DNA of 64,000 nucleotides from Bacteroidales bacterium (GCA_021371855.1 JAJFVL010000049.1:70226-134225); one strand, 5' to 3'; positions 18,113 to 38,800 are shown, counted from the stretch's first letter. Numbers and translations: made by a program. The notes: generated by a model not told the origin, from the sequence alone.

Positions 18113-18176
18113 AAAAATGCCTTGCCTTTATTATACTTCAAAAACGAAATAACTGCTAATATTTAATATAATTATC

Positions 18177-19415: not shown

Positions 19416-19435
19416 CTGGTGTAAACCTGTTATTA

Positions 19436-22699: not shown

Positions 22700-22908
22700 A
22701 GCAAATAATATTAAATGATCGAGAAAGAACATAATATCAATAGCAAAACTTGTACCAATATTTTTCGATCCCAATTGAAGACAACAAAGATAATAATTCA
22801 CAAATGAAGATAATTAAATCATTAAAAACATGATAAAATTTATTGAATGTTGATCTTATAGTATGTATCTGTTAATAGTACCTGACCGTGAAAACATTGA
22901 CAAAGTTT

Positions 22909-24009: not shown

Positions 24010-24261
24010 GTGGTTATGGGTTTTATTTTTTCTTCAAAAATAAACTAATATGCCGTAAAGACAAAAAACGGCTCAATGGCGCGACGGTACAACGGAGGAA
24101 GAGCCTTTAGGGAAAAGGGGAGAAGAGAAGAAGAGGAGAGTGGGAGAATGGGGGAAATCAGGTAATGAAATCACCCTCAAAAAGGTAAAGCTATAGATAT
24201 ACAATAAGACTGCAAAACATCGAGACAACAAGCAGGCCAGCAACCAGAAACAGGAATCAGG

Positions 24262-24981
24262 TCACATGAACTTCTCCCTTTTTTGCAGGTTCGAGAGAGC
24301 TGCAAGTAAAAAAAGGATTGAACATGTAACGAGTATGATCCTGTTCTTAAAAGTGATTAACGCCCAGACTGTTTCATTGACGTTATTTGGAAGATCGTAA
24401 GGATTTAAAAATACATTCCACTGGCTTCTTTGCAGCGACGAATCCTGAAGTATCATGAAAAATATCCCGAAGATTATCATTAACACTGCAGTTCCGTTTC
24501 CGTTTCGTATGACGGTTGAAAGCATAAAAGCCATCATTCCCAAAAACAGAACCGGGATCATCACCTGCATGGTCATATTTGTAAAGCGGAACTTTACTAT
24601 CAATACTGAGGTAAGGAATGTAAAGACAAGCATTATAAGGAAAGCAATAACAAAGATCAGTACAATTCTTACCAGCCACACTTTGTATCTGTAATTTGGG
24701 ATGCCGAATAAAATCTCTATAGTTCGGGCATCCTGATCATTCTGTATCCCAAATACTGATGGATAAAATACCAGAAGTATTCCGGAGAAGATGAAGATCC
24801 CATACATATCCTCCATTCTTGAGACATCATTTGAAAAAACATAAATCACTGATAATCCGATATAAAACAATATCGACCCGGCAAGGAACCAGATAAATTT
24901 GTTTGCAAAGATGATCCTGAGATTATAAATGATCATTCTCCTGATCAATGTGAAGTAATTATATAATGTGTGAGGTTTCAT
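24262..24981 (-). CDS. ABC-2-type transporter permease (6 hydrophobic helices)
   Basis: A 239-aa polytopic protein. After TM1 it has the ABC-2-like motif DQDARTIEILFGIP, paralogous to the N-terminal domain of the 1170-aa protein (LDTNEVLYTRS). It is the last gene of the efflux locus. Confidence 0.7.
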   Translation of the reverse strand: MKPHTLYNYFTLIRRMIIYNLRIIFANKFIWFLAGSILFYIGLSVIYVFSNDVSRMEDMYGIFIFSGILLVFYPSVFGIQNDQDARTIEILFGIPNYRYKVWLVRIVLIFVIAFLIMLVFTFLTSVLIVKFRFTNMTMQVMIPVLFLGMMAFMLSTVIRNGNGTAVLMIIFGIFFMILQDSSLQRSQWNVFLNPYDLPNNVNETVWALITFKNRIILVTCSILFLLAALSNLQKREKFM

Positions 24982-25011
24982 CCGTAAATAATTTTTAGTT
25001 TAAGGTTGGAT

Positions 25012-25075
25012 GGAACCTCCATGTTTTAAAGATTATCTTCATTCTTGATTGTATTTCGTTAAACATGGAGGTTTC
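25012..25075 (-). other. Intercistronic stem-loop between the RND::ABC fusion gene and the ABC-2 permease gene
   Basis: 13 contiguous Watson-Crick pairs (25014-25026 with 25061-25073), extendable to 15 with a G-U pair, and a 34-nt loop. The right arm overlaps the stop codon at 25074-25076. No U-tract follows on the minus strand. Confidence 0.5.
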
Positions 25076-28000
25076 ATAATGAATTATTTTGCTTCCGTCC
25101 GTTTTCAACGGAGTTGTTTACATTTCTACGTAACAGCCACAGATAGGCATCTTCGAGGTTGGGACTTACATTTACCGCATTATCCCATGGTTTTGTGTCT
25201 GATATAACTCTCACTCTTATATTGTCACCTTCCGACATGTGATGCACTACCAGATGGTCTTCTATAAATTTTCCAAAGTCTTTCGCCGGAATATTGAACT
25301 GCCACACATGTTCTTCAGCTTCTTTTGTCATTTCGATCGGTTTTCCCAGGTATCTTAACAATCCTTTGTCGAGGACTGCAACCTGATTACAGGAGCTTGA
25401 TATATCCTCGATGATATGAGTGGAGAATATCACAATACGTTCACGGCTGAGTTCCACCAGCAGGTTACGGAACCTGATACGTTCCCTTGGATCCAACCCT
25501 GCCGTTGGTTCATCAACAACCAGTATACGGGGTAGGTGGAGGAGTATCTGTGCAATGCCCATTCTCTGTTTCATTCCCCCGGAATACGACCCGATCTTGT
25601 CGTGCCGGCGATCTTCCATATGAACAGCATTCAGTACAAAGGTAACCCGTTCTTCCCTTACCTTAGCATCAATGATATTCTTCAGCATTGCCTGGTAATG
25701 GAGATATTCATGAGCAGTCATATTTTCGTAACTTCCGAATTCCTGCGGCAAATAACCTATCAGTCCCTGAAGCTCTTCCCTCTTTTTCTGGGTATCGAGC
25801 CCGTTTATCCATACCTTTCCGTAGCTCTGTTCAAGGATACCACATATTATTCTCATAAGGGTAGTTTTGCCGGCACCATTTGGCCCAAGCAATCCAAACA
25901 TCCCGTTTCCTATATTCAGCGAGACGCAGTTCAGGGCTTTAAAAGGCTTTTTCTTTTTACCGATCAGGGGAACAGCGGCAACAATTTTATATATTGCCTT
26001 TCGTATCTTCTTAAACCTGCCATTAAGCCGGTAGATATCGATATTCTCATTGCTCAGTTTCAACCCTGTCTTATAAATAAAGAGACCGGCGAACCAGAGA
26101 GAACCCAGGATGAGCACGGTAGCAATGTTCTCCCATTTTATCTGAAAATAAACAAGATTGAATAAAGGAACCAGCCAGAATATCGTAAAATCAGCAGCTG
26201 AGATAAATATTCTCAGAGATTTTTTTTCGTTATGAAGTGAAATATCGGCTGACAGATTTTTAAAGGAGATCCATATCCTTGAAAGAGAGAACCACGTTAT
26301 CATGCTGAAGATAAAGATCCAGAATCCCTTACTTAAGTAAAAGTAGGTAAAATAGATTATGAATCCGAGGATTGGTAACTGCCATGTAAGCTGGCTCATA
26401 TCCTTCCACGATTTATATTGCTTTTCAAGTCCGAGCCTTTGTCTTATTTTTGCACCGGCTTTCCATTCCCTCACCCATCGGCTTTCCCTGTCATAAATTT
26501 TAACCAGGCTCTGAATATAAATACTGATATTTTCATCAGCAGGGATGATTGTCTCTCTTGCTTTTCTGAGGCTGTTCATCACGAACCAGGTTCCTGCAGG
26601 TACAATTATTAAAGTCAGTATTATTGTTATGAGCTGCCAGATAAAACTGTCTATATAGCTGTAAATAAGCAACATTAATGCCGAAAAGAAAATCAGTTGT
26701 ATGATTTTGTTCTTCCATGTTAATGAATATATCCAGTTAAGGGCATTTTCGAGTCCTGAGTAGAATGTTGGTATGAATACCAGGGTAAGAAGTGTGCTTA
26801 GCGTCAGTCCTCCGATAACAGTAATTGCAAATGTGGCTCCGATCACAGAAACATATTCGGCAGTGCCCATCGCCAGTGGCAGCATGGCAATAACTGTTGT
26901 TGATGCCGTTATCAGTATTGGTCTTAGCCGTGCTACTCCTGCAGTCATCAATGCCCTTGAACGGCGATATCCTCGCTTTCGTAAAATTTTAGTATAATCA
27001 ATTAACAGGATACCATTGTTTACCACTATACCAAGAAGGATCAGAAAGCCTGTAAGAGTGTTGGCATTAAGGAGTGAATTGCCTGTAAGTATAAGTGCGA
27101 TAAGCGAACCAAGTGCTGCAAGAGGAATGCTGAATATCAGAACGAACGGGATTGAAAGCGATTCGAATACTGCCGCAAGTATCATAAAGATAAGAATGAA
27201 GGCATAGCCCAGCGGTTTGTAAAAATCCTTAAGTTCGTCCTCTTCGTGCACCACCTCAACAGCAATGCCTGAAGGAATGTTCAGATCTGAAACAATTGAT
27301 TCGATGTCAGCCCGGGCCCCTTCCAGGAGATCTTTGGAATCTTTAATATCATCAGTGAAATTATAAGTTACAGTAATCCTTTTTTCCTGGTTTTCCCTGT
27401 GAATATTCCCCATCCCGTATGAAAAGATGATATCCGAAAGTTCCTGCATCTCCATTATCGAACTGCTGCTTTCGCTCACTTCAAGATGCTTCAGGTCGTC
27501 AATGGTTTTATCGGCATTCTTCTTTACTTCCCCTGTTTCATCAGCATATTTAAGCATGATATCGTATTCATCACTTCCCTGCTTAAATGTAGCACCTGAG
27601 GAATATTCCCTTCCGAAGGTGGCCAGTGATGAGGCTAAATTACTGAGAGAGAAATTGTTCCTACTGAGGAAATCCATGTCAAAACGAAGGTGAACTTCGG
27701 GTGTGCTTTCCTGTACATTTACGCTGACGCGGCTGACTGTTGTCAATTCGTCGATATACGATTTTATATCTTCGGCCAGGCTTCTCATCTGCTCAAAATC
27801 CTGTCCCTTGATGATTACACTTTCATTCTGTGCGCCTATACCAAGCAGGTTCATAAAGTTACCTCCAGGGTTGGCTCCTGCGCTGACTCCGCCTCCGGAT
27901 GAAAAGCCTCCGCTTGTTGAAACCTCATCCATGGAGATCTCTGCAGAGGAGATATTTTTAATTTTTTCTTCTATGTCATTTTTTATTTCAGGAAGCGCGC

Positions 28001-29849
28001 GCTTACTCTTCTTGTTCCAGTCATCTGCCAGATTAATCGTTACAGTTGCTTTTTCTTCCTCAATCCTGCTTATTACATCCTCTTTTTCAGGAAGGCCTGA
28101 GAGTCTTGATTCAATTTCAGAAACAACAGCATCGGTTTTTTCGAGTGTCGATCCTGTTGGCATCTTTACAGATAACCTGAAACTGGGAGTCTCGACTTCC
28201 TTAGTGGAATTAATGCTTAATGTAAGACTGATGAGCAGTGCGGCAAAGAAAACAACCAGGGTCCCGATTATCGTGGCTGCAGGCTTCCTCATGCTGGCTT
28301 TCAGTATAAGGTGGTAGGCCTGAATGAGGCGGTTGTGAATGGAAAGCTTCTGGTATACTGCGGAATTGCTTTTTGATGTCCTTGATAGCAGAAAATAGGT
28401 AGCCATAGGAATAAGAAGCATTGCTACAGCGAGTGAAGCCAGAAGCGTTGTGACTATTGAAACGCCGATATTCTTGATAATTATCTTGATAAGGAAGTTT
28501 GATGAAAAGACAAATGGAAGAAATATTATTACAGTTGTAAGGGTTGAAGCAAAAATGGACCTCCACACTTCAGCAGTTCCCTGCATGACAGCCGTTTCAT
28601 TATCTTTTCCTTCGCCCGCAAGCCGGTAAATGTTCTCGAGCACAACCACCGAATTATCGACAAGCATCCCTATGGCAAGAGCCATTCCTACGAGAGTAAG
28701 ACTGTTTATCGATATATTATAGGCATAAAAGAAATTAAAAGCAGCATAAACCGAAACAGGAATAGAAACTGCGATGACGGTTACCAGGCGGAAATTCCTA
28801 AGGAAAAACCATAAGATCAGTACAGCAAGCATACCTCCGGTAATGGCCAGGTTAATGATCTGGTTGATATTCTTTTCCATCACCTCGGCACTGTTGTTCT
28901 GAACAACTATCTCAACCCCCCACGATTTTAACTTCTTGTTTAGTTCTTCAATCTTTTCAATAGCTTTATGTGAGAGATCGATCAGATTAGCCTGGTTATC
29001 ATTCACGAGAGTAATTGTGACGGCATCCAGTCCATTCACACGGCTGTAAGAACTTTGTTCCTTTACTCCGAAAATGATCTCCGAAATATCACGAAGCAGA
29101 ACAGGTCCATCCTGTTTTACAATAATGCTTCCTATCTCATTTACATCGGTGTATTCGGAGGTTATATTCACAAACAATTTGTTTTTACCGTCAAGAACAG
29201 TACCGGCAAAAGTTTTGTTAGTTCCGTTATTATTCAGAAGTGCACTGACCTGTCCCATTGTAATGCCGTAAGCTTTGCAGGCTTTCTCATTCAATCTGAT
29301 CTCAATTGAATTTTCCTGTCCCCCATAAACCTCAACACCTGCAATTCCATCGATGTTTTCCAGTTCGGTTTTGATCTCACGGTCAGCGACATTACGTATC
29401 CTGTCGGCACCTCCTTCACCTCTTACCTGGAGCTCCATGAACTGGTTGGTAAGTTTTTCAAGGTCAATCTTTATGACATTTATTCTAAATTCGGAAGGGA
29501 TAGAGCTCTTTACAGCATTGATTTTTTCCTGGAGCTTCAGATTTGCATATTTCAGATTAGCATTCTGATTGTAGTAGATCATAATGCTTCCATAGCGGGA
29601 AGAAACGGTTGATTCGATCTTCTCGATTCCCTCAAGAGTTCCAATAGCACCTTCAAGCGGTACAACTGCCTGTTTTTCAATGTACGAAGGATCCATCTCA
29701 AGGGGAGTGCCTACCTGTACTATAAGAGTGGGCAGTTCAGCATTTGGAATAAGCTCAACGGACAGTTTCTTATAAGAGACATAACCGAGCATCGTGAGCC
29801 CGGCAAAAAGCATTATAATAAAAATTCTTCTTTTTAAAACGAAGTTCAT
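25074..29849 (-). CDS. Fusion protein: RND (AcrB/HAE1-like) permease + 2 TM linker + ABC ATPase interrupted by a 4-TM insertion
   Basis: An uninterrupted 1591-aa ORF. Residues 1 to about 1043 are a full 12-TM RND permease. Residues 1108-1123 (ISIYIQSLVKIYDRES) align with the N-terminal strand of the neighbouring ABC ATPase. Residues 1304-1591 carry Walker A (GPNGAGKT), the signature (YSGGMKQR), Walker B (ILVVDEPTAGLD) and the H-loop (STHI). Confidence 0.85.
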   Translation of the reverse strand: MNFVLKRRIFIIMLFAGLTMLGYVSYKKLSVELIPNAELPTLIVQVGTPLEMDPSYIEKQAVVPLEGAIGTLEGIEKIESTVSSRYGSIMIYYNQNANLKYANLKLQEKINAVKSSIPSEFRINVIKIDLEKLTNQFMELQVRGEGGADRIRNVADREIKTELENIDGIAGVEVYGGQENSIEIRLNEKACKAYGITMGQVSALLNNNGTNKTFAGTVLDGKNKLFVNITSEYTDVNEIGSIIVKQDGPVLLRDISEIIFGVKEQSSYSRVNGLDAVTITLVNDNQANLIDLSHKAIEKIEELNKKLKSWGVEIVVQNNSAEVMEKNINQIINLAITGGMLAVLILWFFLRNFRLVTVIAVSIPVSVYAAFNFFYAYNISINSLTLVGMALAIGMLVDNSVVVLENIYRLAGEGKDNETAVMQGTAEVWRSIFASTLTTVIIFLPFVFSSNFLIKIIIKNIGVSIVTTLLASLAVAMLLIPMATYFLLSRTSKSNSAVYQKLSIHNRLIQAYHLILKASMRKPAATIIGTLVVFFAALLISLTLSINSTKEVETPSFRLSVKMPTGSTLEKTDAVVSEIESRLSGLPEKEDVISRIEEEKATVTINLADDWNKKSKRALPEIKNDIEEKIKNISSAEISMDEVSTSGGFSSGGGVSAGANPGGNFMNLLGIGAQNESVIIKGQDFEQMRSLAEDIKSYIDELTTVSRVSVNVQESTPEVHLRFDMDFLSRNNFSLSNLASSLATFGREYSSGATFKQGSDEYDIMLKYADETGEVKKNADKTIDDLKHLEVSESSSSIMEMQELSDIIFSYGMGNIHRENQEKRITVTYNFTDDIKDSKDLLEGARADIESIVSDLNIPSGIAVEVVHEEDELKDFYKPLGYAFILIFMILAAVFESLSIPFVLIFSIPLAALGSLIALILTGNSLLNANTLTGFLILLGIVVNNGILLIDYTKILRKRGYRRSRALMTAGVARLRPILITASTTVIAMLPLAMGTAEYVSVIGATFAITVIGGLTLSTLLTLVFIPTFYSGLENALNWIYSLTWKNKIIQLIFFSALMLLIYSYIDSFIWQLITIILTLIIVPAGTWFVMNSLRKARETIIPADENISIYIQSLVKIYDRESRWVREWKAGAKIRQRLGLEKQYKSWKDMSQLTWQLPILGFIIYFTYFYLSKGFWIFIFSMITWFSLSRIWISFKNLSADISLHNEKKSLRIFISAADFTIFWLVPLFNLVYFQIKWENIATVLILGSLWFAGLFIYKTGLKLSNENIDIYRLNGRFKKIRKAIYKIVAAVPLIGKKKKPFKALNCVSLNIGNGMFGLLGPNGAGKTTLMRIICGILEQSYGKVWINGLDTQKKREELQGLIGYLPQEFGSYENMTAHEYLHYQAMLKNIIDAKVREERVTFVLNAVHMEDRRHDKIGSYSGGMKQRMGIAQILLHLPRILVVDEPTAGLDPRERIRFRNLLVELSRERIVIFSTHIIEDISSSCNQVAVLDKGLLRYLGKPIEMTKEAEEHVWQFNIPAKDFGKFIEDHLVVHHMSEGDNIRVRVISDTKPWDNAVNVSPNLEDAYLWLLRRNVNNSVENGRKQNNSL

Positions 29850-29867
29850 GTTCTGTTTTATAAGAAA

Positions 29868-32800
29868 TTATGCCGGATTAACTTTTTTTCTTTCAGACAC
29901 TGTCAGCCATTGGGTGAGACTGTCAAAAATCCAGTAAACACATGGGATCACTATCAGGGTCAGAAGAGTGGAAGAGACCAGACCACCTATTACTGCAAGA
30001 GCCATCGGAGATCTAAGTGATGCACTTTCACCGATCCCGATCGTAAGAGGGAAGAGAGCAAGAATTGTAGTCAGGCTTGTCATCAGTATCGGTCTTATTC
30101 TTTGACTACCGGCAAGAACAATAGCCTCTTTTTTATTCAGTCCTCCTTCCCTGAGTTGATTTATCCGATCGATGAGGAGAATTGCATTGTTTACGGCAAT
30201 CCCTCCAAGCATTATTATTCCGATGTAGGCCATCATATTAAGCGTTTTTCCCAGAAGGAAAAAAATGAGAACTGTTCCGACACCAGCCAGGGGGATGGTA
30301 AGCATTATTATAAAAGGTTGAATTATTGATTCAAACTGTGCTGCAAGAACCATGAAGACAAGAATAAGTGAAAGCATAAGTGCAAACGAAAGATTTGCAT
30401 TCGATTCCTTCCGCTTCATCTCCTCCCCGGTGAGTTGCAGTTTATAATCAACAGGAAGAGTCACTGCCTTTAGAGATTGCCCGGCATCTTTTGCTACATG
30501 ATCAAAAGCAACATCTTTATTCACATTTGCATAGATATAGCAGGTCCTTACCTGATTCCTGCGTGTAATCTCACGAGGACTTAAAACTGTTTTGATGGTG
30601 GCAAACTCACTGAGAGGAACCGATACTGTTCCGGCTGTTATCTTCAGATCTTTTAGCTGATGCAGCGAAATATCCTCAAGCTTAATAGTGATATCTTTCA
30701 TTTCACCATCTTTCTCGAAACTGCCTGCGGAAGAACCCGACAAATAACTTTTTACCTGGCTGATTACATTGTCAGTGGTGACATTGTAATAACTTGTTTT
30801 GAAACGGTCAATGGCCACCTCTACCCCGGGGGTACCTTCATCCATTGATGTGGTAATATTGTACAATCCGCTATTCTTCCCAAGAATAGTTTTTGACTCA
30901 TTAAGAATTCTCTCCAGTTCAGTATAGTCTTTGCCTGAAATTTCAAGTTCAAAAGGAGCTTCTGTGGTCCCAAGAGATGATTGGAGGGCAGTCTCCTCGC
31001 GTGTAAATGTTACTTCAAGATCAGGGATTGAAGAGAGGTAGTTATCAATTGTAGTTATTGCATTTTCCGTAAGTGAGGCGAACTTCTTATCCAGTATTAT
31101 TTTAAGCGAAGCTGTGTTTTCGCCTTCTGTCCCTGTGTTATTGGTAAGAGAGGATGTTTTACCCTTGCCTGCCTGACAATAGATAATATTTATTTTGTCG
31201 CCTAGTAATTCCCTGATAATTCCTTCGGTCTTTGATGCTGTACTGAAAGTGCGTTCGAGACTGGTTCCCTCAGGAAGTTTCAAATTTACAGCAAATTCAG
31301 CTGATTCTGATTTTGGCATGAATTCACTTCCAAGCTGTGGTATCAGCAGAGCAGTTCCTGCCATTAGCACAACTGATAGTATAATTACAAGTTTTCTTTT
31401 TTCAATTGCTTTTTCCAGGAAGCGATAGTACCATCCGAACTTCAGGGGATAGGAAATTTCGTTTTTCTTCTTTTTATCGCTAAAGAGTGTCGACACCATC
31501 ATCGGTATGACAAGCATTGCAACTACCAGTGAAGAGAGAAGAGCAAAAGCTACGGTCCATGCCTGATCTTTGAACATCTCTCCTGAAGCTCCATGCAGAT
31601 ATACTATCGGAAGGAAAACCACAATGGTTGTCACAGTTGAGGCGGTTATAGCCCCGCCAACCTGTCCTGTTCCCTTAATGACGGCCTCTTTAAGAGGGAC
31701 TCCTTCCTCCCTGAGCCTGGTTATATTTTCGAGCACAACAATGGCATTGTCAACCAACATTCCAGCTCCGAGCGCAAGCCCTCCTAATGTCATTATGTTG
31801 AGGGTCAGATGGTTGAAATACATCAGGTTAAAGGTTGCAATTATTGAGACAGGGATTGCAACGCTGATTACAAGAGTAGTACCTATACGTCTCAGGAATA
31901 TGTAAAGAACAAACACCGCCAGAAGAATACCTACAATAAGTGTGTTTTTGACCTCACCAATGGCATTATTGATATAATTTCCCTGGTCCTGCACTTTAAT
32001 GAATTCATAACCCGGTAAGGCTTTGGCAAGGTCGGCAAATGCCTTGTCGAGGCTTTCAACGGCATCTACGGTATTGTATTTTGGTTCCTTATATATTGAT
32101 AATCCAATGCACCGCTCCCCGTTAATTGTGACAATGTTCTCAGGATCTTTATTAGCTAACTTTATTGCAGCAACATCTTTCAGGTATACCGGTACTTTTT
32201 CTGATGCTGAAGCGGAAGTAGCACTTTTGGTGGTCTCTGATGCGGTTGAAGATGAGGGTTGTGTGAATCCGACAATAATATTTTCAAGGTCTTTAATATC
32301 CTCAAGAACTGTTACTCCCTTAACTGTATATTTAGTACCCATATCCACAATTGACCCTCCGGAAACATTTTTATTGTAATTGCTTATTTTGGCAGCAATT
32401 ATATCTGAGGTGATCCCATAAGCTTCAAGCACGTATTTATTTGTTTCAATTACCACCTCGCTCTCTTCCTGTCCTGTCAGCCGTACATCGGCTATCCCTT
32501 CAATCCTTACAAGTTCATTACGGATATAGTTTTCAGCAGTCTTGCGCAGCTCGTCCATATTTGTGATATGGTCGTTCTTAAGTCCCACGATCATAACAGG
32601 AGAAGCATTGGGATCGTATTGGGAGATGGTGAAGTCATCGATATCGGAGTTCTGGGCAAATGAGTTCAGTTCCTTCTGAAGATCGAGAAAGGCTTCATCC
32701 ATATCTTTATTCCAGTCATATTCAACGGTTATAGTAGCTGATCCCACTTTTGAAACTGATGAAACCTGAACAACATCACTCTGTTGCATCGAAAGTGATT

Positions 32801-33005
32801 CGATCTTGTCGACAAAATTCTTTTCAACCTCCTCGGGAGGTTTTTCTCCTGCCGTCAATTCAATATAAATCTTAGGATTGTTAAGATCAGGGAACAGATC
32901 GGTTCTTAATTTACCGAAAGAGATGAAGCCAAGAAGAATTATCCCCAGGACCAGCATCAATACAGTAACAGGGTATTTTACCGCAAATTGGGCAATTCGG
33001 TTCAT
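29868..33005 (-). CDS. Efflux RND transporter permease subunit (AcrB/AcrD/AcrF family)
   Basis: 1045 aa with 12 hydrophobic helices and two large periplasmic loops. The N-terminus (FAVKYPVTVLMLVLGIILLG) and the GMLVDNAIVVLENI motif are typical. Confidence 0.92.
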   Translation of the reverse strand: MNRIAQFAVKYPVTVLMLVLGIILLGFISFGKLRTDLFPDLNNPKIYIELTAGEKPPEEVEKNFVDKIESLSMQQSDVVQVSSVSKVGSATITVEYDWNKDMDEAFLDLQKELNSFAQNSDIDDFTISQYDPNASPVMIVGLKNDHITNMDELRKTAENYIRNELVRIEGIADVRLTGQEESEVVIETNKYVLEAYGITSDIIAAKISNYNKNVSGGSIVDMGTKYTVKGVTVLEDIKDLENIIVGFTQPSSSTASETTKSATSASASEKVPVYLKDVAAIKLANKDPENIVTINGERCIGLSIYKEPKYNTVDAVESLDKAFADLAKALPGYEFIKVQDQGNYINNAIGEVKNTLIVGILLAVFVLYIFLRRIGTTLVISVAIPVSIIATFNLMYFNHLTLNIMTLGGLALGAGMLVDNAIVVLENITRLREEGVPLKEAVIKGTGQVGGAITASTVTTIVVFLPIVYLHGASGEMFKDQAWTVAFALLSSLVVAMLVIPMMVSTLFSDKKKKNEISYPLKFGWYYRFLEKAIEKRKLVIILSVVLMAGTALLIPQLGSEFMPKSESAEFAVNLKLPEGTSLERTFSTASKTEGIIRELLGDKINIIYCQAGKGKTSSLTNNTGTEGENTASLKIILDKKFASLTENAITTIDNYLSSIPDLEVTFTREETALQSSLGTTEAPFELEISGKDYTELERILNESKTILGKNSGLYNITTSMDEGTPGVEVAIDRFKTSYYNVTTDNVISQVKSYLSGSSAGSFEKDGEMKDITIKLEDISLHQLKDLKITAGTVSVPLSEFATIKTVLSPREITRRNQVRTCYIYANVNKDVAFDHVAKDAGQSLKAVTLPVDYKLQLTGEEMKRKESNANLSFALMLSLILVFMVLAAQFESIIQPFIIMLTIPLAGVGTVLIFFLLGKTLNMMAYIGIIMLGGIAVNNAILLIDRINQLREGGLNKKEAIVLAGSQRIRPILMTSLTTILALFPLTIGIGESASLRSPMALAVIGGLVSSTLLTLIVIPCVYWIFDSLTQWLTVSERKKVNPA

Positions 33006-33010
33006 GTTAG

Positions 33011-34063
33011 TTATTTAATTATTTTCACCTTCGATTTGTTGCTGAGAGTTTCAAAGCCGGCTGTTACGATCCGTTCATCTTTGACTAATCCTCTGATTAC
33101 TTCTACTTCCGAAATATTTTCAAGTCCTGTCTCAATTATCTTTTCGACAGCAACACCACGGTCGATTGTAAATACTGTTTTGCCCTTCTGGCGCGACAGG
33201 ATTATGCTTTTAGGAATTACAACAACAGAGTCCTTATGGTTTGTGATAATATCTGCTTTCACAAACATGCCAGGGCGGAGAAGGTAATTGTTGTTGTTTA
33301 TCAGGATATTACCCTTGAAAGTTCTGGTGTTGGCATCGATGGCCGGCGACAGCTGGGTAATCTTACCTATTATGGTATCTCCCGGCAAGGTGTAATTTGT
33401 GAGTCTGACAGTTTGTTCAGGTTTGATTACGGATATATATTTCTCAGGAAGCTGAACATCCATATACATAGTTTTGTAATCCATTATTTTAGCAATTGTC
33501 GAAGCCTGCGCAATCAATGTCCCCTGGGTATAATAGGGGAGGTCGACAATAACACCGTCAATAGGGGCAACTATCTTGGTCTTTTCGAGTTGCAGCCTTG
33601 CATTTTCAACAGTTGTTTTTGCGGTTTCATAATTAATGCTCGCTGTTTTCAGCTCCTTCAGTGTGACGCCTCCTTTCTCATATAGTGACTCCTGTTTTTT
33701 GAGTTCACTTTCAGCAAGTTCAAGGTTCAGCTCGCTGGTCTCCATCTTGACGGAAATGACATACTCCCTGTCCTCAAGCCTGGCTATCAGTGCTCCGGCT
33801 GTAATCTTGTCTCCCATTTGCCATGGTTTGCCAGTATGTGGATTTTTTTCAAGGTAATATGAAGCAGCGATTTTTGAAGCAAGCACAATTTCTCCCTTCG
33901 GGAAGGCAGTGCCTGTTGTGTTGATAAATTCTTCTATCGACCTGAGCCGGATATCTTCAATTGAAACGGGGATTTCAACATCGGCAGTAAGGTTCTGATC
34001 GGTATTCCGGCATCCCGAGAGTGAAATTATTGCAATTGCTGATAAGACTAAAATCTTCTTCAT
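33011..34063 (-). CDS. Efflux RND periplasmic adaptor (membrane fusion protein, HlyD/AcrA family)
   Basis: 350 aa with a lipoprotein-type signal (LSGC), a coiled-coil hairpin region, and lipoyl and beta-barrel segments (IVAPIDGVIV). It lies 5 nt upstream of the RND gene. Confidence 0.9.
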   Translation of the reverse strand: MKKILVLSAIAIISLSGCRNTDQNLTADVEIPVSIEDIRLRSIEEFINTTGTAFPKGEIVLASKIAASYYLEKNPHTGKPWQMGDKITAGALIARLEDREYVISVKMETSELNLELAESELKKQESLYEKGGVTLKELKTASINYETAKTTVENARLQLEKTKIVAPIDGVIVDLPYYTQGTLIAQASTIAKIMDYKTMYMDVQLPEKYISVIKPEQTVRLTNYTLPGDTIIGKITQLSPAIDANTRTFKGNILINNNNYLLRPGMFVKADIITNHKDSVVVIPKSIILSRQKGKTVFTIDRGVAVEKIIETGLENISEVEVIRGLVKDERIVTAGFETLSNKSKVKIIK

Positions 34064-34085
34064 GGGAATATAAGTTATATTTTAT

Positions 34086-35576
34086 TTATTTTTTATTTAA
34101 TGTCATTACCGGCGAAACAGGTTCTTTTTTCTCAAAGTCATAAAGTGTCTGGATTTTAAGATTCAGCAATTCAAGCTTGTAAGAGATAAGAGAATTTGTG
34201 TAAGAGAGTTTTTTTTCAGATAGCTGGTTCTGATAGATATTAAGGTCCATTCCTGTAAGGTCACCGTTCTTGTATTTTTCGAGATTAAGATCATAAGCAA
34301 GCTGGGCATTAACGACATTCTGGCGTGCAATTTCGATCTGGTTTTGCAAATTCAGAAGATTTCTGTATATCTTTCTGATACTAAGAATAATATCATTCTG
34401 TTCTTCCTCAAAAGCAATATTTGCTGACTCGATCGATGCTTCAGATGCTTTTATTCTTGATTTTCTTTCCCCCCAGTCCCAAAGGGGGATTGACAATGAC
34501 AATGAAACGCTTTCGTTATTTGTGGGGGTTTCATATACATTTCCGAATTTTTCATTGTCCCCGAAAAGCCCGACTGAAAGACCCAGGTTTCCTTTAAATT
34601 CGTTCAGCGCTTTAGTCTGAATAAGATTAAACTCGGATGACTCAATATTGATTTTACGTTGTCTTAATTCCATCCTGTTATCAAGCCCCTGATCGATGGC
34701 AAAAGCAACATCAACCTTCACAGTGTCAACTGCAATGTTTGGCAGAACCAGAAGATCTTCATACAAACTCATTCCGATCACGATCTTGAAATTGTCCTTG
34801 GAATTCTCGAAAGACACCTGGCTGTTCTCAAAATCAGATTTTGTTGTGGCAAGGTTAAGCTCAGCCTGGAACATCTCCTCGCGGGCCAGCAGGCCGGCAT
34901 CGACTTTATTCCTGGAGACTTCGTAACTCTTCTGCATATTTTCGTATGCCTGCCTGGATATCTCAAGGCTTTGTTGTTTCTGGTAAACATCATAAAAAGA
35001 TGTTGTGACTTCTTTCTCGAGCGAAAGTAACTGTATTGCATAGCTCAACTTTGCGTTTTCGAGTGCAAGTTGCAGCTCTTTAAGTTCAAGTTTGGTCCTG
35101 TTGTAGGTGAACAGGGGCTGATTAAGATTGAGAGCAAGGTTGTTGCTGAATCCCTTATTTGTTGCACCTGAATATTCGCTGTATGAGTCTTTATATCCAA
35201 ATTTATTCACCAGCGATATGTTTGCGTCAGTTAAGAGTACAGGTTGTGAAATGGTGAATGTGCCGAAACTTTCTGTTGTCTTTGTTGAGTTCCATGCTGA
35301 GATGAGTTCATTAAAGGAACGGTTCTGGCTATATCCTATCGGGTTGACCGATAGCGAAAACTGAGACTTCAGGGCTGCGTTCTGTGCATTCAGGTTTTCC
35401 TGGCTCCTTACAAGGCTGAGCCGTGTTGTTTTCATTGTCGGACTGTTTGATTCGGCAATGCTCATTGCTTCATCAATTGTCATTCCTTTCTGAGAAAAGG
35501 ATATTATGAAGGTGGCCGGGAACAATATTAGAAGCAGGTATAATCTCCTCAGTTTGACGTTGAATCGTTGTTTCAT
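34086..35576 (-). CDS. TolC-family outer-membrane efflux channel
   Basis: 496 aa with a signal sequence and the duplicated alpha-helical/beta repeat pattern of outer-membrane factors. It lies directly upstream of the adaptor gene. Confidence 0.9.
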   Translation of the reverse strand: MKQRFNVKLRRLYLLLILFPATFIISFSQKGMTIDEAMSIAESNSPTMKTTRLSLVRSQENLNAQNAALKSQFSLSVNPIGYSQNRSFNELISAWNSTKTTESFGTFTISQPVLLTDANISLVNKFGYKDSYSEYSGATNKGFSNNLALNLNQPLFTYNRTKLELKELQLALENAKLSYAIQLLSLEKEVTTSFYDVYQKQQSLEISRQAYENMQKSYEVSRNKVDAGLLAREEMFQAELNLATTKSDFENSQVSFENSKDNFKIVIGMSLYEDLLVLPNIAVDTVKVDVAFAIDQGLDNRMELRQRKINIESSEFNLIQTKALNEFKGNLGLSVGLFGDNEKFGNVYETPTNNESVSLSLSIPLWDWGERKSRIKASEASIESANIAFEEEQNDIILSIRKIYRNLLNLQNQIEIARQNVVNAQLAYDLNLEKYKNGDLTGMDLNIYQNQLSEKKLSYTNSLISYKLELLNLKIQTLYDFEKKEPVSPVMTLNKK

Positions 35577-35684
35577 TTTATTGACTTTAAATTCTGATTA
35601 TATTTTTATTTACCTCGGAGTAACGCTAAGATATTCACGGAGATACACGAATTTTACCGATCCCCGGTTTCCCTTTTCCGTAAC

Positions 35685-35772
35685 TCTCTCAGCTCTATGC
35701 TCTACTCTTTGCTCTGCTCTTTTATCTTTTAACTTTTATCTTTTATCTTTTCTGTCTTTTATCTTTTTTTAC
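35685..35772. repeat. Low-complexity pyrimidine tract with CTTTTAT heptamer repeats
   Basis: The plus strand reads CTCTCAGCTCTATGCTCTACTCTTTGCTCTGCTC, followed by about six CTTTTAT-like units (35719-35770). It lies in the 245-nt gap upstream of the TolC gene. Confidence 0.6.
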
Positions 35773-35821
35773 CAAAGAGGCTACGTAGTTTTACTGATTC
35801 TCAGACCTCCCACCTCACACC

Positions 35822-38800
35822 TCAGTTCTGCTTCACCCACTTAATTGCATCGCCAATCACTACTCTTCCGGCCGAAAGATTTGTCAGAGCAACTTTTGCT
35901 GTACCTGGTGAAAGGTAGTAACGGCCAAGTTTGTTCCAACCGGCATCAGCGTCCTGGTATTCAATTGTTATTTCTTCCACACCTTCGTCATGGTATATTT
36001 TGTAATGCATATCCTTATATGGATTGTCTCGCTGGGGTTCACCTCCCGGACCTGCCTGGCTGCCCGGACTACCCCCCGGGGCACCCTGAGCTCCGGCCCC
36101 TCCGGGTCCTCCGCCTGCTCCTCCCGGACCTCTTCTTCCCGTTACCAGAATCCGGTCACGGGTTTTTCCCACATAGCAGAATATATCATAATAGCCTGGC
36201 TCTTTGATAGTGGCAGACCATACTATTTCTTTATCGCCCGAACCACCGCGGGTATATACCGACGAAAGAATATAATCCCCGTAATAATTGGTTTCAACAA
36301 CTTTCTGCCAGTATTCTGGTACATTCATCATTCTGACCTGCTGGTACATTTCGCTTCTATTGTTTTTTATTCCAAGAAGTTTTTTAAGAGGACTGACACT
36401 ATCCCTGACGGCTACAATAAAACCCGGATCTTCGTTATCAACAATTATCTCTGAGGGATCTCTGTATTGCGGGATTGAAGGAAGGATAGCTTCGCCCGCG
36501 AATTCTTCAGCTCTTTTTTCCGATTTTGCTATTTCATTGATTGGCATAGTTATCTGGCCTGGTATGTTCTTCGCGAACAGAGTGTTAACCATCATTGCTC
36601 TTGGGCGGGCATCAAGTACAACACCAACCTTTTTTGCCTCGTTGGGTCCGATAAGCACTATTTTTGAAATATCAGAAGCTTCCATGCCGCGTCCCTGCAT
36701 CGAAATAGCAAAATTCCTTCCTCTTCCGGCTCCTCCCTGTGTAACAGTTGCTGTCACTCTTTGACCTCCTCTTCCCTGTGATCCCGGACCTCCCGTGCGG
36801 AATGATACATTGAATATTCCTGCAACAGGCTCAATATTAGACACAATAAAGGTCACCTGGTATTTCGATCTGTCACCTGTAATAATTTCTGTTGCCTGAA
36901 CATTTGTGAAACGGAAACCAGGCTGCTCTTTCTTATTAAACCAGTCATCAAGATAAGGATAGAACTCAAAACCGAATCTCCCATTTATATCGTCATTCAA
37001 TTGCTTAATATCAACTCTTTTAAACCTGTGATCATCAATGTATTTCTCAAACCAGTCTTTAAACTCTGTAATCCCTGCCTTTGCCCTGATCAGATTAAAG
37101 AGATAATCACCTTTTACAGTCAGGACAGCCCTCATAGTATCACCTGAGGGATTCTTTTCCAGAAGATCCCTGAAACTTGTCTCTTTAAGTATAAGATTTG
37201 CTTTGTCATTTTCGGTAAGCCCTCCCATCATACCACCGAATCGGCCTTGTCCAGGTACAGATACTTTCTGAAGATGAGATTCAAAAACAGCATTTATAAC
37301 AGGATATTCCGAAGAGTAGAAATTGTTTTTGAAAAAGTAGAAACTTGGTGCAAGACGATACCGGGTTGGTTCGTTAAGAACGTTTCCCTTTACAAACCTG
37401 AAATTCTCACCGCTGATAAATGTGTTTCTGATAAAATTGTTAAATGTTCTGACCTGCAGCTCTTTATCAGTAATGACCTGATTGTTTCGGGTCATCCTTT
37501 TTTTCTGTCGTGATATTTGTTTACGGAATCCTGCATTTTGCAATGTCGATAATTTCTCAGGAAGCAAAACCATTGAAGGTTGCAATTCTGCCCTGGTCTG
37601 AGTGTTCATTTTCGGAAAAGAATGAAACTGAACGGGAACTTCAACAAGACTCAGGGTACCAAAAGGGTATTTGCTTGAGAAATTTGTTTCCAGTTCCCTT
37701 AGTATTCCTGAAACAAGTAATGGCAGAGTATCTTTAATTTCAGCAAGATCCTTTTTGTAATAATCATGTCCCGGGAAATTGAAACTTATGAATCTGACCG
37801 AGTCAACTATCAGAGTATCCGACTGATAGTCTCCTATAACAAGTGTCAGGCCGGTCAGTGAAGATTCCGGGACGAAAACGAAATCTCCGTTATCCGTTTT
37901 CCTGTTGCCCTGCGATATTACATTAAGCCCTTCTTCTGTTTTTACCCGCAACGTGAACCTGGTGAAATCAATTTTTATCCGTGCAGGATTCGATGGATAA
38001 TAATTCAGTCCTGTTACAGGATACCATTGTGATTCGGGAGTTAATAAAACATATTTCTTTGTCAGAAATGCCTGCCGTTTGTTCACATTAAGCATAGCAA
38101 TACGGTATGGTGTTTCTTTGATATTATCGGTGTAGTTAGGATAACAAAATGCCTCATTTATTGATCCGCTGTAGGTTATCTTAACGCTGTCGCTCATTCC
38201 GGGTTCAAGAACCTTTCCGGGATCAACCTCAATAATCTGATTTGTTTTTTTAAAATTAAGATTGTTTCCGTTAGAAGTGATTCTGGAAACGGACAAAGAA
38301 GGATTCAGGGAGAAAATATAACTATCAAGCCCCACCCTGTTATCATTAACAAACTTTAAGAGGGCAGATGCCTCAAATGTATCTCCTTTGTGAATGAAAT
38401 TTATTGAAGCATCGGTTATGCTTGTAACGTTACTGTTCTCGAATTCTTTATTGGTTTTAATTGCCAATTCTTTATCGTCAGCTCCTTTTTTATAAGCTGA
38501 ATAAGTATTCAATCCGCAAATGGCTGATCCGGCCAGGAAGATGAGCATAAATATCCAGGAAAAGGTGCTGTGTGTTTTTGATTGTGGTAATCGTTTGAAT
38601 AGCAATACTGTAGCCAATACCATGGCCATCCCTATGAAAAAATACAGGAGGCGTTGATTTAAAATATTATTTAAATTGTCAAATCCGATCACCCCTGATT
38701 TCAATACAGGAAGTCCAAATGCCATGTAATCGAAAATAGATCCGGACCTGTCGTAGAGCCAGAATATATTAAGTGCTGCCAGTCCGAGTAAAATAAGAAA

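What the first reader, a model, noticed from the sequence alone, without database searches (positions are those of the whole stretch)
25074..29849. A complete RND permease and an ABC ATPase encoded as one 1591-aa polypeptide
RND pumps are driven by proton-motive force and ABC transporters by ATP, and they are normally separate machines. Here a full 12-TM AcrB-like permease (about aa 1-1043, nt 26721-29849) continues in frame, without a stop, into two extra hydrophobic helices (aa 1044-1107). It then runs into an ABC nucleotide-binding domain with intact Walker A, signature, Walker B and H-loop motifs. The membrane topology supports a real fusion. The RND C-terminus is cytoplasmic, and an even number (2) of added helices returns the chain to the cytoplasm, where an NBD must sit. 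I do not know of a characterised RND::ABC fusion. It implies either physical coupling of two energy sources in one tripartite pump, or an ABC module docked onto an RND trimer.
Basis: partly seen in the sequence, partly recalled or inferred. Interest (0 to 1): 0.85.

Follow-up and report, generated by a model that had tools for sequence, protein, structure and literature searches.

The report
RND pump fused to ABC ATPase
A subunit of a proton-driven efflux pump and the ATP-burning engine of an ABC transporter are made as one 1591-residue membrane protein, kept together with the same partner genes in several bacterial phyla, which points to an undescribed two-engine export machine in the cell envelope.

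Summary
Window 25074-29849 (-) is one 1591-codon ORF with a full-length RND permease (aa 2-1031) and an ABC ATPase domain.

The fusion is not an artefact:
- The frame stays open (1570-1646 codons) in about 65 of 68 related genomes.
- It recurs in other phyla at 25-40% identity.
- Every segment has dN/dS of about 0.02-0.08.
- All ATPase motifs are invariant in 73 sequences.

The extension has six extra helices, not two. TM13-14 comes first, then strand beta1 and the A-loop of the ATPase. A 170-residue insertion with four helices follows, and only then the ATPase core.

The gene is the sixth of a conserved seven-gene cluster (24262-40243, -). The order is free paralogous ATPase, 1170-aa permease with a large periplasmic domain, outer-membrane factor, adaptor, second RND, the fusion, and a 239-aa six-helix protein that is probably an ABC-2 permease.

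The best reading is a composite exporter. ABC-2 modules tethered to an RND pair would pass substrate to the RND/adaptor/outer-membrane duct. That mechanism is inferred, not shown. No description of such a fusion was found in the literature.

The parts
39350..40243 (-). Free ABC ATPase of 297 aa, a paralogue of the fused ATPase domain and the first gene of the cluster.
   Evidence: Pfam ABC_tran E 4.1e-31. It is DrrA/GldA-like but below the family cut-offs. It is 41% identical to the fused ATPase domain and lacks the 170-aa insertion. It lies directly upstream of the 1170-aa gene in all 27 metagenome loci and in the distant loci L110 and L111.
35822..39334 (-). Membrane protein of 1170 aa with an N-terminal 6-7 helix ABC-2-like permease domain and a periplasmic domain of about 890 aa ending in Golvesin_C.
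   Evidence: Hydropathy gives seven peaks within aa 26-275. Golvesin_C matches aa 1101-1167. There is no other Pfam, NCBIfam or PDB match. Its position is conserved.
34086..35576 (-). Outer-membrane factor (TolC family), 496 aa.
   Evidence: Pfam OEP E 2.9e-46. TIGR01844 TolC family match.
33011..34063 (-). Periplasmic adaptor (membrane fusion protein), 350 aa.
   Evidence: HlyD_D23. TIGR01730 RND_mfp scores 196 bits, above its cut-off of 94.9.
29868..33005 (-). Companion RND permease (RND1) of 1045 aa, of ordinary size.
   Evidence: ACR_tran E 2.9e-222. It is 29.5% identical to the RND part of the fusion and has the same D-N / N pattern at AcrB positions 407-408 / 940.
25074..29849 (-). The RND::ABC fusion ORF, 1591 aa.
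   Evidence: The fusion is conserved.
26745..29849 (-). RND permease part, aa 1-1035, with 12 helices.
   Evidence: ACR_tran at aa 2-1031. Hydropathy. Best PDB sequence matches are ZneA, MdtB, MexB and AcrB.
26568..26717 (-). Helical hairpin TM13-TM14, aa ~1045-1094.
   Evidence: Hydropathy. AF2 helices 14-34 and 38-67 of the aa 1032-1591 model. dN/dS 0.07.
26490..26528 (-). Strand beta1 and the A-loop tyrosine of the ATPase domain, aa 1108-1120 (ISIYIQSLVKIYD).
   Evidence: It aligns to the N-terminus of the free paralogue, MKIEIQGLNKIYP. AF2 predicts a strand at model residues 79-87. K1117 and Y1119 are invariant or nearly so.
25980..26489 (-). Insertion of about 170 aa inside the ATPase domain: amphipathic helices, then TM15-TM18 (aa ~1157-1267), then a return helix.
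   Evidence: It is absent from the paralogue. AF2 gives four long helices at model residues 126-236. Family-averaged hydropathy and K+R distribution agree. dN/dS 0.06. Only 99 matches were found in 1.84 billion representative proteins. In the 20-odd hits of 1134-1587 aa it lies at aa ~1032-1295; nearly all the rest are shorter pieces.
25290..25979 (-). ATPase core, aa 1291-1520, from beta2 through Walker A, Q-loop, signature, Walker B, D-loop and H-loop.
   Evidence: ABC_tran. Motifs are 73/73 invariant. Foldseek matches TM_1403, ABCA7/ABCA4, NosF and LptB. dN/dS 0.017.
25074..25289 (-). C-terminal beta-rich domain of the ATPase (aa 1521-1591) plus the stop codon.
   Evidence: AF2 strands at model residues 484-518. 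It aligns with the C-terminal domain of the free paralogue. Foldseek alignments of 283-303 columns to TM_1403 and NosF include their C-terminal domains.
24262..24981 (-). Six-helix membrane protein of 239 aa, the probable ABC-2-type permease partner and last gene of the cluster.
   Evidence: It is present directly after the fusion in 80 of 80 loci, often abutting or overlapping its stop. It is also present in distant loci at 25% identity. It has six hydropathy peaks. Pfam matches to ABC2_membrane_2/3/4 are weak only.

Best explanation
The ORF encodes a genuine single polypeptide that is one subunit of a conserved multi-gene envelope exporter.

Shown:
- An ordinary 12-helix RND permease continues through a helical hairpin (TM13-14) into an ABC-2/type V-class ATPase domain.
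- The first strand and A-loop of that domain are separated from the rest by a four-helix membrane insertion (TM15-18). The domain is therefore pinned to the membrane on both sides and lies in the cytoplasm next to the RND transmembrane domain.
- All catalytic motifs are intact and under very strong purifying selection, so it should hydrolyse ATP.

Inferred:
- The fused ATPase works with the six-helix protein encoded immediately downstream as its permease.
- It probably also works with the paralogous pair at the head of the operon (free ATPase plus the 1170-aa permease with a large periplasmic domain), either as a heterodimeric ABC-2 transporter or as two homodimeric ones.
- The two RND paralogues form a mixed trimer, as MdtB and MdtC do, which engages the adaptor and the outer-membrane factor.
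- The ABC-2 part uses ATP to move or extract a substrate made in the cytoplasm or inner membrane to the periplasmic face. It hands the substrate directly to the RND part, which expels it through the adaptor/outer-membrane duct using ion-motive force.
- The covalent link fixes stoichiometry and proximity so that the two steps are channelled.

The substrate is unknown. A lipid, glycolipid or glycan of the envelope is a guess from the transporter class.
For: Reality of the fusion:
- The stop-free frame is 1570-1646 codons in about 65 of 68 species-level genomes with enough upstream DNA. The three exceptions are internally broken frames in which the RND-ABC junction is still intact.
- Twenty representatives of 50%-identity clusters, 1134-1587 aa long (19 of them 1550-1587 aa), carry the linker at aa ~1032-1295, down to 24-30% identity.
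- Members come from Latescibacterota, Krumholzibacteriota, Zixibacteria, Acidobacteria, Spirochaetales and many Bacteroidota MAGs.
- dN/dS is 0.017-0.083 in every segment, including TM13-18.

Active ATPase:
- Walker A Lys, Q-loop Gln, the SGG signature, Walker B Asp, the catalytic Glu and the H-loop His are 73/73 invariant, and the A-loop Tyr is 72/73.
- The ATPase core is the most conserved block.
- The AF2 model has mean pLDDT 78.6. Its best fold matches are ABC-2/type V ATPases with a C-terminal domain: TM_1403, ABCA7/ABCA4 and NosF.

Split ATPase domain:
- Alignment with the free paralogue places the 170-aa insertion exactly between beta1 and beta2.
- AF2 secondary structure agrees.

Cytoplasmic location:
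- There are six hydropathy peaks. K+R per predicted cytoplasmic loop is 14.6, 3.6 and 11.1, against 0.8-1.0 for predicted periplasmic loops.

Operon:
- The order ATPase, 1170-aa permease, OMF, MFP, RND1, fusion, 239-aa protein is kept in all 80 genome loci and 27 metagenome loci as far as the flanks reach.
- In two distant loci (GC 62% and 45%) the order is ATPase, Golvesin_C permease, MFP, RND1, RND2::ABC, 238/239-aa protein. The outer-membrane gene lies after it in L110, and none is called nearby in L111.

The 239-aa protein as permease:
- It has six helices and is directly coupled to the fusion gene.
- ABC-2 Pfam families recur as weak matches among 30 orthologues: 10 to ABC2_membrane_2, 5 to ABC2_membrane_4 and 4 to ABC2_membrane_3.
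- One JGI annotation names it a NosY-type permease.

Background:
- RND pumps take substrates from the periplasm or outer leaflet, and heterotrimers such as MdtBC are known (review PMC8277102, plus general knowledge).
Against: - No direct evidence for hand-over, for the substrate, for the mixed RND trimer or for the pairing of the ATPases.
- The assignment of the 239-aa protein to the ABC-2 family rests on sub-threshold matches only. Its AF2 model failed (pLDDT 53).
- Profile searches of PDB found nothing for it.
- Its similarity to the N-terminal domain of the 1170-aa protein is not significant (hhalign probability 1.3%).
- Three six-helix bundles compete for two ATPases, so the real pairing may differ.
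- Both RNDs lack two residues of the AcrB proton-relay triad (D408 to N, K940 to N). Ordinary proton coupling of the RND step is therefore an assumption.
Confidence: 0.5

Rival explanations
1. ATP-driven or ATP-gated RND pump. ATP binding and hydrolysis in the fused ATPase, transmitted through TM13-18, drives or licenses the conformational cycle of the RND protomers. The tripartite pump would then be powered by ATP alone or by ATP plus ion-motive force. The small membrane proteins would serve as stators rather than as a separate translocation path.
For: - The link is covalent, and the ATPase is anchored twice in the membrane next to TM12 of the RND.
- Both RNDs of the operon have Asn at the positions of AcrB D408 and K940 in all 73 fusions and all companion orthologues seen.
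- In AcrB, substituting either residue abolishes transport (review PMC8277102).
- Related ABC-2 ATPases such as NosF act as mechanotransducers for periplasmic partners (fold match; function from general knowledge).
Against: - D407, R971 and T978 equivalents are invariant, so a reduced proton or ion path may still work.
- Unrelated RND genes in the same genomes have DD but Ser at position 940. K940 is therefore not universal in this lineage, and its absence is not tied to the fusion.
- ABC ATPases must dimerise, which does not match a threefold RND.
- The companion RND has no ATPase.
- No known precedent shows an ABC ATPase driving a non-ABC transmembrane domain of this kind.
Confidence: 0.2
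2. Tethering without mechanistic coupling. The fusion only ensures co-expression, co-localisation or fixed stoichiometry of two transporters that act on the same pathway but work independently, or the ATPase domain acts as a regulatory sensor of cellular ATP.
For: - Gene fusions of pathway partners are common.
- The operon already encodes a complete free ABC pair (ATPase plus 1170-aa permease) and a complete RND/MFP/OMF set.
- One short contig (L112) may carry the TM13-18 plus ATPase module as a separate gene, with a stop codon 17 codons upstream.
Against: - The fusion, the six linker helices and the insertion are kept across phyla with dN/dS of about 0.06-0.08. That is more constraint than a passive tether needs.
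- The catalytic motifs are invariant, which argues against a purely regulatory, non-hydrolysing domain.
Confidence: 0.25
3. Artefact: an assembly chimera, a sequencing frameshift that removed a stop, or a decaying pseudogene.
For: - The window is from a metagenome-assembled genome.
- A few relatives show broken frames: L001, L032, L046, L110 and L111.
Against: - The same junction is open in about 65 independent assemblies made with different methods.
- It is also open in full-length proteins from distant phyla.
- In the broken cases the break lies inside the RND part, not at the RND-ABC junction.
- Purifying selection acts on every segment.
Confidence: 0.01

Closest known systems
MdtABC-TolC (E. 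coli) and other RND tripartite pumps with two RND paralogues (MdtB2C heterotrimer)
   Same: Two adjacent RND permease genes share one adaptor gene and an outer-membrane factor. The permease has the full ACR_tran architecture with 12 helices. D407, R971 and T978 equivalents are kept.
   Different: - One of the two RNDs carries a 560-aa C-terminal extension with six helices and an ABC ATPase.
- The proteins are only 21-25% identical to MdtB, MdtC or AcrB, and NCBIfam scores are far below the MdtB/MdtC cut-offs.
- D408 and K940 are replaced by Asn in both RNDs.
- ABC genes sit on both sides of the RND genes within the same cluster.
ABC-2 / type V ABC systems with a separate ATPase and a six-helix permease, such as NosDFY, GldAFG, DrrAB and TM_1403
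   Same: - ATPase with a C-terminal beta-rich domain.
- Best fold matches are TM_1403, NosF and the ABCA family.
- Best NCBIfam models are GldA and DrrA.
- A small six-helix partner gene of about 240 aa lies directly downstream.
- A second permease has a very large periplasmic domain, comparable in logic to NosD or GldG partners.
   Different: - The ATPase is covalently fused behind an RND permease and is interrupted by a four-helix insertion in the beta1-beta2 hairpin.
- Scores are below the GldA and DrrA family cut-offs.
- The permease partners do not reach any Pfam ABC-2 threshold.
MacAB-TolC, the ABC-driven tripartite efflux pump (type VII ABC)
   Same: An ABC ATPase, a periplasmic adaptor and a TolC-family protein in one system. 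ATP energy is used for export across the outer membrane.
   Different: - MacB has an N-terminal ATPase, four helices and its own periplasmic domain (FtsX/MacB_PCD), with no RND component.
- No FtsX or MacB_PCD match was found here.
- The protein likely to contact the adaptor here is an RND permease.
Functional relays between an inner-membrane exporter and an RND pump (for example enterobactin export via EntS then AcrB/AcrD/MdtABC, or single-component drug pumps feeding AcrAB-TolC)
   Same: The proposed logic is the same. One transporter crosses the inner membrane, and an RND pump takes the substrate from the periplasmic side and expels it. This is from general knowledge and was not tested here.
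   Different: In the known cases the two transporters are separate proteins encoded at separate loci. Here one half of the first transporter is part of the same polypeptide as an RND protomer, and all parts are in one operon.

Membership tests
RND superfamily permease (Pfam ACR_tran; HAE-1-like) | Full-length match to the family profile | tested here: met
   ACR_tran at aa 2-1031, covering profile positions 3-1018 of 1021, E 1.8e-162. PDB sequence matches include ZneA, MdtB, MexB, CmeB and AcrB.
RND superfamily permease (Pfam ACR_tran; HAE-1-like) | Twelve helices in a 1+5+1+5 pattern with two large periplasmic loops | tested here: met
   Hydropathy of the window protein and of the 73-sequence family average.
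RND superfamily permease (Pfam ACR_tran; HAE-1-like) | AcrB-type proton relay: D407, D408, K940, R971 and T978 | tested here: not met
   Alignment with E. coli AcrB, MdtB and MdtC gives D407=D, D408=N, K940=N, R971=R and T978=T. The pattern is invariant in 73 of 73 fusions, and the companion RND shows it too. So this is an RND permease but not a canonical HAE-1 relay. The definition of the relay is from PMC8277102.
RND superfamily permease (Pfam ACR_tran; HAE-1-like) | Encoded with a periplasmic adaptor and an outer-membrane factor | tested here: met
   RND_mfp TIGR01730 scores 196 bits against a cut-off of 94.9. OEP and the TolC family also match. The arrangement is syntenic in related loci.
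RND superfamily permease (Pfam ACR_tran; HAE-1-like) | Trimeric assembly (homo- or heterotrimer) | not testable with these tools
   No multimer modelling was available. This needs cryo-EM or AlphaFold-Multimer.
MdtB/MdtC orthologue pair | Score above the NCBIfam equivalog cut-offs for MdtB or MdtC | tested here: not met
   The fusion scores 245 bits against cut-offs of 1584 (MdtB) and 1774 (MdtC). The companion scores 368 and 350 bits. Identity is 21-25%. Only the gene arrangement is alike.
ABC ATPase (nucleotide-binding domain) | Walker A, Q-loop, signature, Walker B with catalytic Glu, D-loop and H-loop | tested here: met
   All motifs are present and 73/73 invariant. ABC_tran E 6.1e-28.
ABC ATPase (nucleotide-binding domain) | ATPase-domain fold | tested here: met
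   AF2 model with mean pLDDT 78.6. Foldseek E 1e-15 to 1e-13 to many solved ABC ATPases. The first strand is supplied from upstream of the insertion.
ABC-2 / type V exporter | ATPase of the DrrA/GldA/NosF/ABCA class with a C-terminal domain | tested here: inconclusive
   The best NCBIfam models are GldA (171.7 bits, cut-off 402.6) and DrrA (160.5 bits, cut-off 312.45), both below cut-off. The best fold matches are TM_1403, ABCA7/ABCA4 and NosF.
ABC-2 / type V exporter | Six-helix ABC-2 permease partner | tested here: inconclusive
   - The 239-aa protein has six helices.
- Pfam ABC2_membrane_2 gives E 0.014 (15.1 bits, cut-off 27.2).
- Of 30 orthologues, 10 give weak ABC2_membrane_2 hits, 5 ABC2_membrane_4 and 4 ABC2_membrane_3.
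- There is no PDB hit by profile.
- The AF2 model is unusable.
GldA (gliding-motility ABC ATPase) equivalog | Score above the TIGR03522 cut-off | tested here: not met
   The fused ATPase scores 171.7 bits and the free paralogue 184.4 bits, against a cut-off of 402.6.
MacB-type (type VII) tripartite ABC pump | FtsX/MacB periplasmic-domain permease fused after the ATPase | tested here: not met
   No FtsX or MacB_PCD match in any protein of the cluster.

The most novel reading that the evidence does not exclude
The cluster builds one physically integrated machine. ATP hydrolysis by the membrane-pinned ATPase domains is transmitted through TM13-18 to RND protomers that have lost two of the three AcrB relay-triad residues. 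That would make a tripartite RND-type pump driven or gated by ATP, a hybrid of primary and secondary active transport. A 2:1 or 1:2 RND heterotrimer would set the number of ATPase domains.
Probability: 0.2. Interest if true: 0.95.

Novelty: new variant of a known kind. Interest (0 to 1): 0.75.

Why it matters
RND pumps and ABC transporters are textbook examples of separate energy-coupling classes. Every characterised tripartite pump uses one or the other.

This work shows a conserved, selected and widely distributed protein that joins an RND protomer to an ABC engine. It sits inside an operon that also carries a second ATPase, two ABC-2-like permeases, a second RND, an adaptor and usually an outer-membrane factor. 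That gives a concrete system for asking how substrates made inside the cell reach RND pumps, which load from the periplasmic side. It also allows a test of whether an ABC engine can act on an RND scaffold.

Two further features are new to my knowledge. The ATPase domain is split by a four-helix membrane insertion in its first beta-hairpin. And both RNDs naturally lack the D408/K940 pair that is essential in AcrB.

The family occurs in Bacteroidota, Latescibacterota, Zixibacteria and related uncultured groups. Current annotation hides it under names such as 'efflux RND transporter permease subunit' or 'ABC-type multidrug transport system ATPase'.

Tried and rejected
1. **Artefact hypothesis.** Rejected.
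2. **Short database hits.** The protein database behind search for homologous proteins returned only hits under 1000 aa, which at first suggested truncated or unfused relatives.
   - Reading the DNA of the loci showed full-length frames.
   - The short proteins on long contigs are internal-start calls after frameshifts, for example P0029 on the contig of L046.
3. **Relay loss as evidence for ATP drive.** Weakened. The companion RND has the same pattern, and unrelated RNDs in these genomes have Ser at position 940.
4. **AF2 of the 239-aa protein.** Using 33 homologues of 79-87% identity gave pLDDT 53. No fold search was run on it because it would be meaningless.
5. **Profile searches of PDB for the 239-aa protein.** One used close orthologues and one added the distant ones. 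Neither found anything relevant.
6. **Similarity between the 239-aa family and the N-terminal domain of the 1170-aa protein.**
   - hhalign gave probability 1.3% and E 0.04.
   - Pairwise BLASTP gave E 0.004.
   - Paralogy of the two permeases is therefore not established.
7. **PDB sequence search with the periplasmic domain of the 1170-aa protein.** Nothing found. NCBIfam also found nothing.
8. **Promoter and terminator consensus scan of 22000-41000.** Counts were no different from shuffles, so it did not help define operon ends. Bacteroidota promoters are not covered by that scan.
9. **Search for an unfused relative.** P0264 on L112 has a stop 17 codons upstream of the TM13 equivalent. Only 64 nt of upstream DNA exist, so this is undecided.
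10. **Literature searches.** Four searches on RND/ABC fusions and on Golvesin found no description of this architecture.


Full report
**1. The observation**

Window 25074-29849 on the minus strand is a single ATG-initiated ORF of 1591 codons. The window comes from NCBI assembly GCA_039679575.1, contig JBDKUQ010000004.1, where the public gene call is the same 1591-aa product.

Pfam places a full-length RND permease domain (ACR_tran) at aa 2-1031, covering profile positions 3-1018 of 1021 with E 1.8e-162. It places an ABC ATPase domain (ABC_tran) at aa 1309-1450 with E 6.1e-28. Hydropathy shows the RND pattern of helices. Walker A (GPNGAGKT), Q-loop (YLPQ), signature (YSGGM), Walker B plus catalytic Glu (ILVVDE) and the H-loop (STH) are all present.

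**2. Is the fusion real?**

A scan of one genome per species found 121 relatives, and 80 loci were fetched. All are Bacteroidales, Rikenellaceae or other Bacteroidota MAGs, 73-83% identical in the C-terminal part.

In about 65 of the 68 loci with enough upstream DNA, the stop-free frame containing the ATPase is 1570-1646 codons long (one outlier, L025, reads 1741 stop-free codons). The three exceptions (L001, L032, L046) are broken inside the RND part, not at the RND-ABC junction. Short proteins seen in the protein database are internal-start calls on such contigs.

An exhaustive search of 1.84 billion representative proteins with the linker alone (aa 1040-1300) gave only 99 hits. Twenty of them are 1134-1587 aa long (19 of these 1550-1587 aa) and carry the match at aa ~1032-1295. 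That is the same architecture, at 24-42% identity.

Source names place the family in Latescibacterota, Krumholzibacteriota, Zixibacteria, Acidobacteria and Spirochaetales MAGs. Among Bacteroidota they include Prolixibacteraceae, Draconibacterium, Mangrovibacterium, Chryseosolibacter and Odoribacter.

Among 13 moderately diverged pairs, dN/dS per segment is as follows. dS is near saturation, so the values are approximate.

| Segment | dN/dS |
|---|---|
| RND part | 0.055 |
| TM13-14 | 0.071 |
| beta1 region | 0.083 |
| TM15-18 | 0.063 |
| ATPase core | 0.017 |
| C-terminal domain | 0.068 |

In 73 full-length sequences every catalytic residue of the ATPase is invariant, and the ATPase core is the most conserved block. 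Chimerism, frameshift and pseudogene are excluded.

**3. Corrected anatomy of the extension**

There are six helices:
- TM13 and TM14 at aa ~1045-1094.
- TM15 to TM18 at aa ~1157-1267.

Both the window protein and the family-averaged hydropathy show this.

Between the two groups lies ISIYIQSLVKIYD (aa 1108-1120). This aligns with the very N-terminus of the free ATPase encoded at 39350-40243 (MKIEIQGLNKIYP). The alignment resumes only at KALNCVSLNIGNGMFGLLGPNGAGKT. The fused domain therefore equals the paralogue plus an insertion of about 170 residues between strand beta1 with its A-loop tyrosine and strand beta2.

The AlphaFold2 model of aa 1032-1591 used 44 sequences and has mean pLDDT 78.6. 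In order, it gives two long helices, a strand at residues 79-87, amphipathic helices, four long helices, a return helix, and then a normal ATPase core with a beta-rich C-terminal domain.

K1117 and Y1119 are invariant or nearly so. The K+R content of the loops follows the positive-inside rule: 14.6, 3.6 and 11.1 for predicted cytoplasmic loops against 0.8-1.0 for predicted periplasmic loops. I found no precedent for an ABC ATPase interrupted by a membrane insertion at this point. That statement rests on my own knowledge and on the negative literature searches.

**4. What kind of ATPase**

The best NCBIfam models are GldA (171.7 bits) and DrrA (160.5 bits), both below their cut-offs. The best fold matches are TM_1403, ABCA7/ABCA4/ABCA1, NosF of NosDFY, and LptB. 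This is the ABC-2/type V class, whose ATPases work with separate six-helix permeases.

**5. The neighbourhood changes the picture**

The fusion is the sixth gene of a cluster on the minus strand:

| Coordinates | Product |
|---|---|
| 39350-40243 | Free ATPase, 297 aa, 41% identical to the fused one, all motifs canonical |
| 35822-39334 | 1170-aa protein: first ~275 residues form 6-7 helices with an ABC-2-like motif, the rest is a large extracytoplasmic domain ending in Golvesin_C |
| 34086-35576 | TolC-family outer-membrane factor |
| 33011-34063 | RND-type adaptor |
| 29868-33005 | Second RND permease of ordinary size |
| 25074-29849 | The fusion |
| 24262-24981 | 239-aa protein with six helices |

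Synteny is strong:
- The last five genes are syntenic in all 80 genome loci as far as the flanks reach. The 239-aa gene is present in 80 of 80 and often abuts or overlaps the fusion's stop.
- The first genes are syntenic in all 27 metagenome loci.
- Two distant loci (GC 62% and 45%, the latter with flagellin genes) keep the order ATPase, Golvesin_C permease, adaptor, RND1, RND2::ABC, 238/239-aa protein. The outer-membrane factor follows the 239-aa gene in L110, and none is called nearby in L111.

The 239-aa protein matches only sub-threshold ABC-2 Pfam families: 10, 5 and 4 of 30 orthologues for ABC2_membrane_2, _4 and _3. One JGI record calls it a NosY-type permease. Its AF2 model failed and PDB profile searches were empty. 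Its assignment as the permease partner is therefore inferred from size, topology, weak matches and gene coupling.

**6. The RND parts**

The RND portion is divergent. Its best PDB sequence matches are ZneA at 217 bits and AcrB at about 188 bits. It is 21% identical to AcrB and 29.5% identical to the companion RND.

Aligned with E. coli AcrB, MdtB and MdtC, both RNDs of the operon keep D407, R971 and T978. Both have Asn at D408 and at K940. This holds in 73 of 73 fusions and in all companion orthologues detected. In AcrB these residues form the proton-relay triad, and single substitutions abolish transport (PMC8277102).

This fact is striking but does not prove ATP drive, for three reasons:
- The companion RND, which carries no ATPase, has the same pattern.
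- One carboxylate and the arginine remain.
- Six unrelated RND genes in the flanks of related loci have DD but Ser at position 940.

**7. Most likely mechanism**

Shown:
- One polypeptide.
- An active-looking ATPase in the cytoplasm, pinned to the membrane on both sides of its first strand.
- Obligatory co-occurrence with a paralogous ATPase, two small or large polytopic proteins, a second RND and an adaptor across phyla, and with an outer-membrane factor in the Bacteroidota loci and in L110.

Inferred:
- The ABC-2 parts assemble on the RND pair. The ATPases either form a heterodimer (fused plus free), which would need one fused protomer per RND trimer, or homodimers, which would fit two fused protomers per trimer as in MdtB2C.
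- They use ATP to bring a substrate made in the cell to the periplasmic face.
- The RND/adaptor/outer-membrane part then expels it.

I put this at about 0.5. The direct ATP drive or gating of the RND cycle gets 0.2, tethering without mechanistic coupling 0.25, and artefact 0.01.

**8. Comparison with the known, and novelty**

The system shares gene logic with MdtABC-TolC and ATPase class with NosDFY, GldAFG and DrrAB. It shares the idea of an ABC-energised tripartite pump with MacAB-TolC. It is not a member of the MdtB/C, GldA or MacB families by their own criteria.

Current annotations call the protein 'efflux RND transporter permease subunit', 'ATP-binding cassette domain-containing protein' or 'ABC-type multidrug transport system ATPase subunit'. 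Three full-text literature searches on RND/ABC fusions found no description of an RND-ABC fusion. A fourth, on Golvesin, was uninformative.

I rate it a new variant of known kinds. The parts are familiar. The covalent combination, the split ATPase domain and the conserved seven-gene arrangement are not.

**9. Limits**

No multimer modelling, no experimental data and no substrate are available. The family assignment of the two small permease-like parts is weak. One possible unfused relative (L112) could not be resolved. The divergent lipid A genes next to the cluster (lpxD, lpxC-fabZ, lpxA) are only a faint hint about function, because the loci compared are closely related.

Noticed in passing
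window 40467-45130 (+): An HD-domain protein, lpxD, an lpxC-fabZ fusion and lpxA lie divergently next to the head of the cluster. The HD gene and lpxD keep this position in most of the 27 metagenome loci (where the flank reaches far enough). This could hint at an envelope-lipid function, or it could be inherited synteny among close relatives.
   Followed up: partly
window 7074-14483 (+): An ORF of 2469 aa is annotated with SprA_N (type IX secretion translocon) in the gene table of the source contig. The organism is therefore a Bacteroidota member with a type IX secretion system.
   Followed up: no
window 21218-22801 (-): A 527-aa protein has no Pfam or NCBIfam match. Its C-terminal half consists of about five tandem Ser/Thr/Arg-rich repeats (TTRRSSSTVTTRPATSPSAGQSTS). 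Relatives occur in 10 of 80 loci at varying distances from the cluster.
   Followed up: no
L008, L029, L032, L042, L058, L077 (flanks of the cluster): A different RND gene in these genomes has the canonical DD in TM4 but Ser at the position of AcrB K940. K940 is therefore not universal in RND pumps of this lineage.
   Followed up: partly
window ~27800-27920 (-), aa ~645-680 of the fusion: The second periplasmic loop of the RND part contains a Gly-rich segment (GGFSSGGGVSAGANPGGNFMNLLGIG). Counterparts are present in distant family members (P0246, P0312, P0269). Its role is unknown.
   Followed up: no
L112:1-120 (GCA_028748505.1, contig JAMHJE010019392.1): A 526-aa relative starts with TTG just before the TM13 equivalent, and a stop codon lies 17 codons upstream in frame. 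This may be an unfused TM13-18 plus ATPase gene. The contig has only 64 nt of upstream DNA, so it cannot be decided.
   Followed up: partly
L110:5084-11851 and L111:8074-12760: In two distant long-contig assemblies the RND genes are called in pieces with overlapping ends. In L110 the RND part of the fusion seems to lack roughly aa 580-950. This is probably due to indel errors in the assemblies, but a real variant is not excluded.
   Followed up: partly
window 15104-19888 (-) and 14621-14995 (+): An ordinary housekeeping block: rimP, nusA and infB, with gcvH next to it. Nothing unusual was seen.
   Followed up: no
(database behaviour): The 90%-clustered protein database never listed a hit longer than 1000 aa. 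Yet it holds the window's own 239-aa protein, and full-length 1550-1590-aa relatives exist elsewhere. Absence of long hits from that tool should not be read as absence of the fusion.
   Followed up: yes
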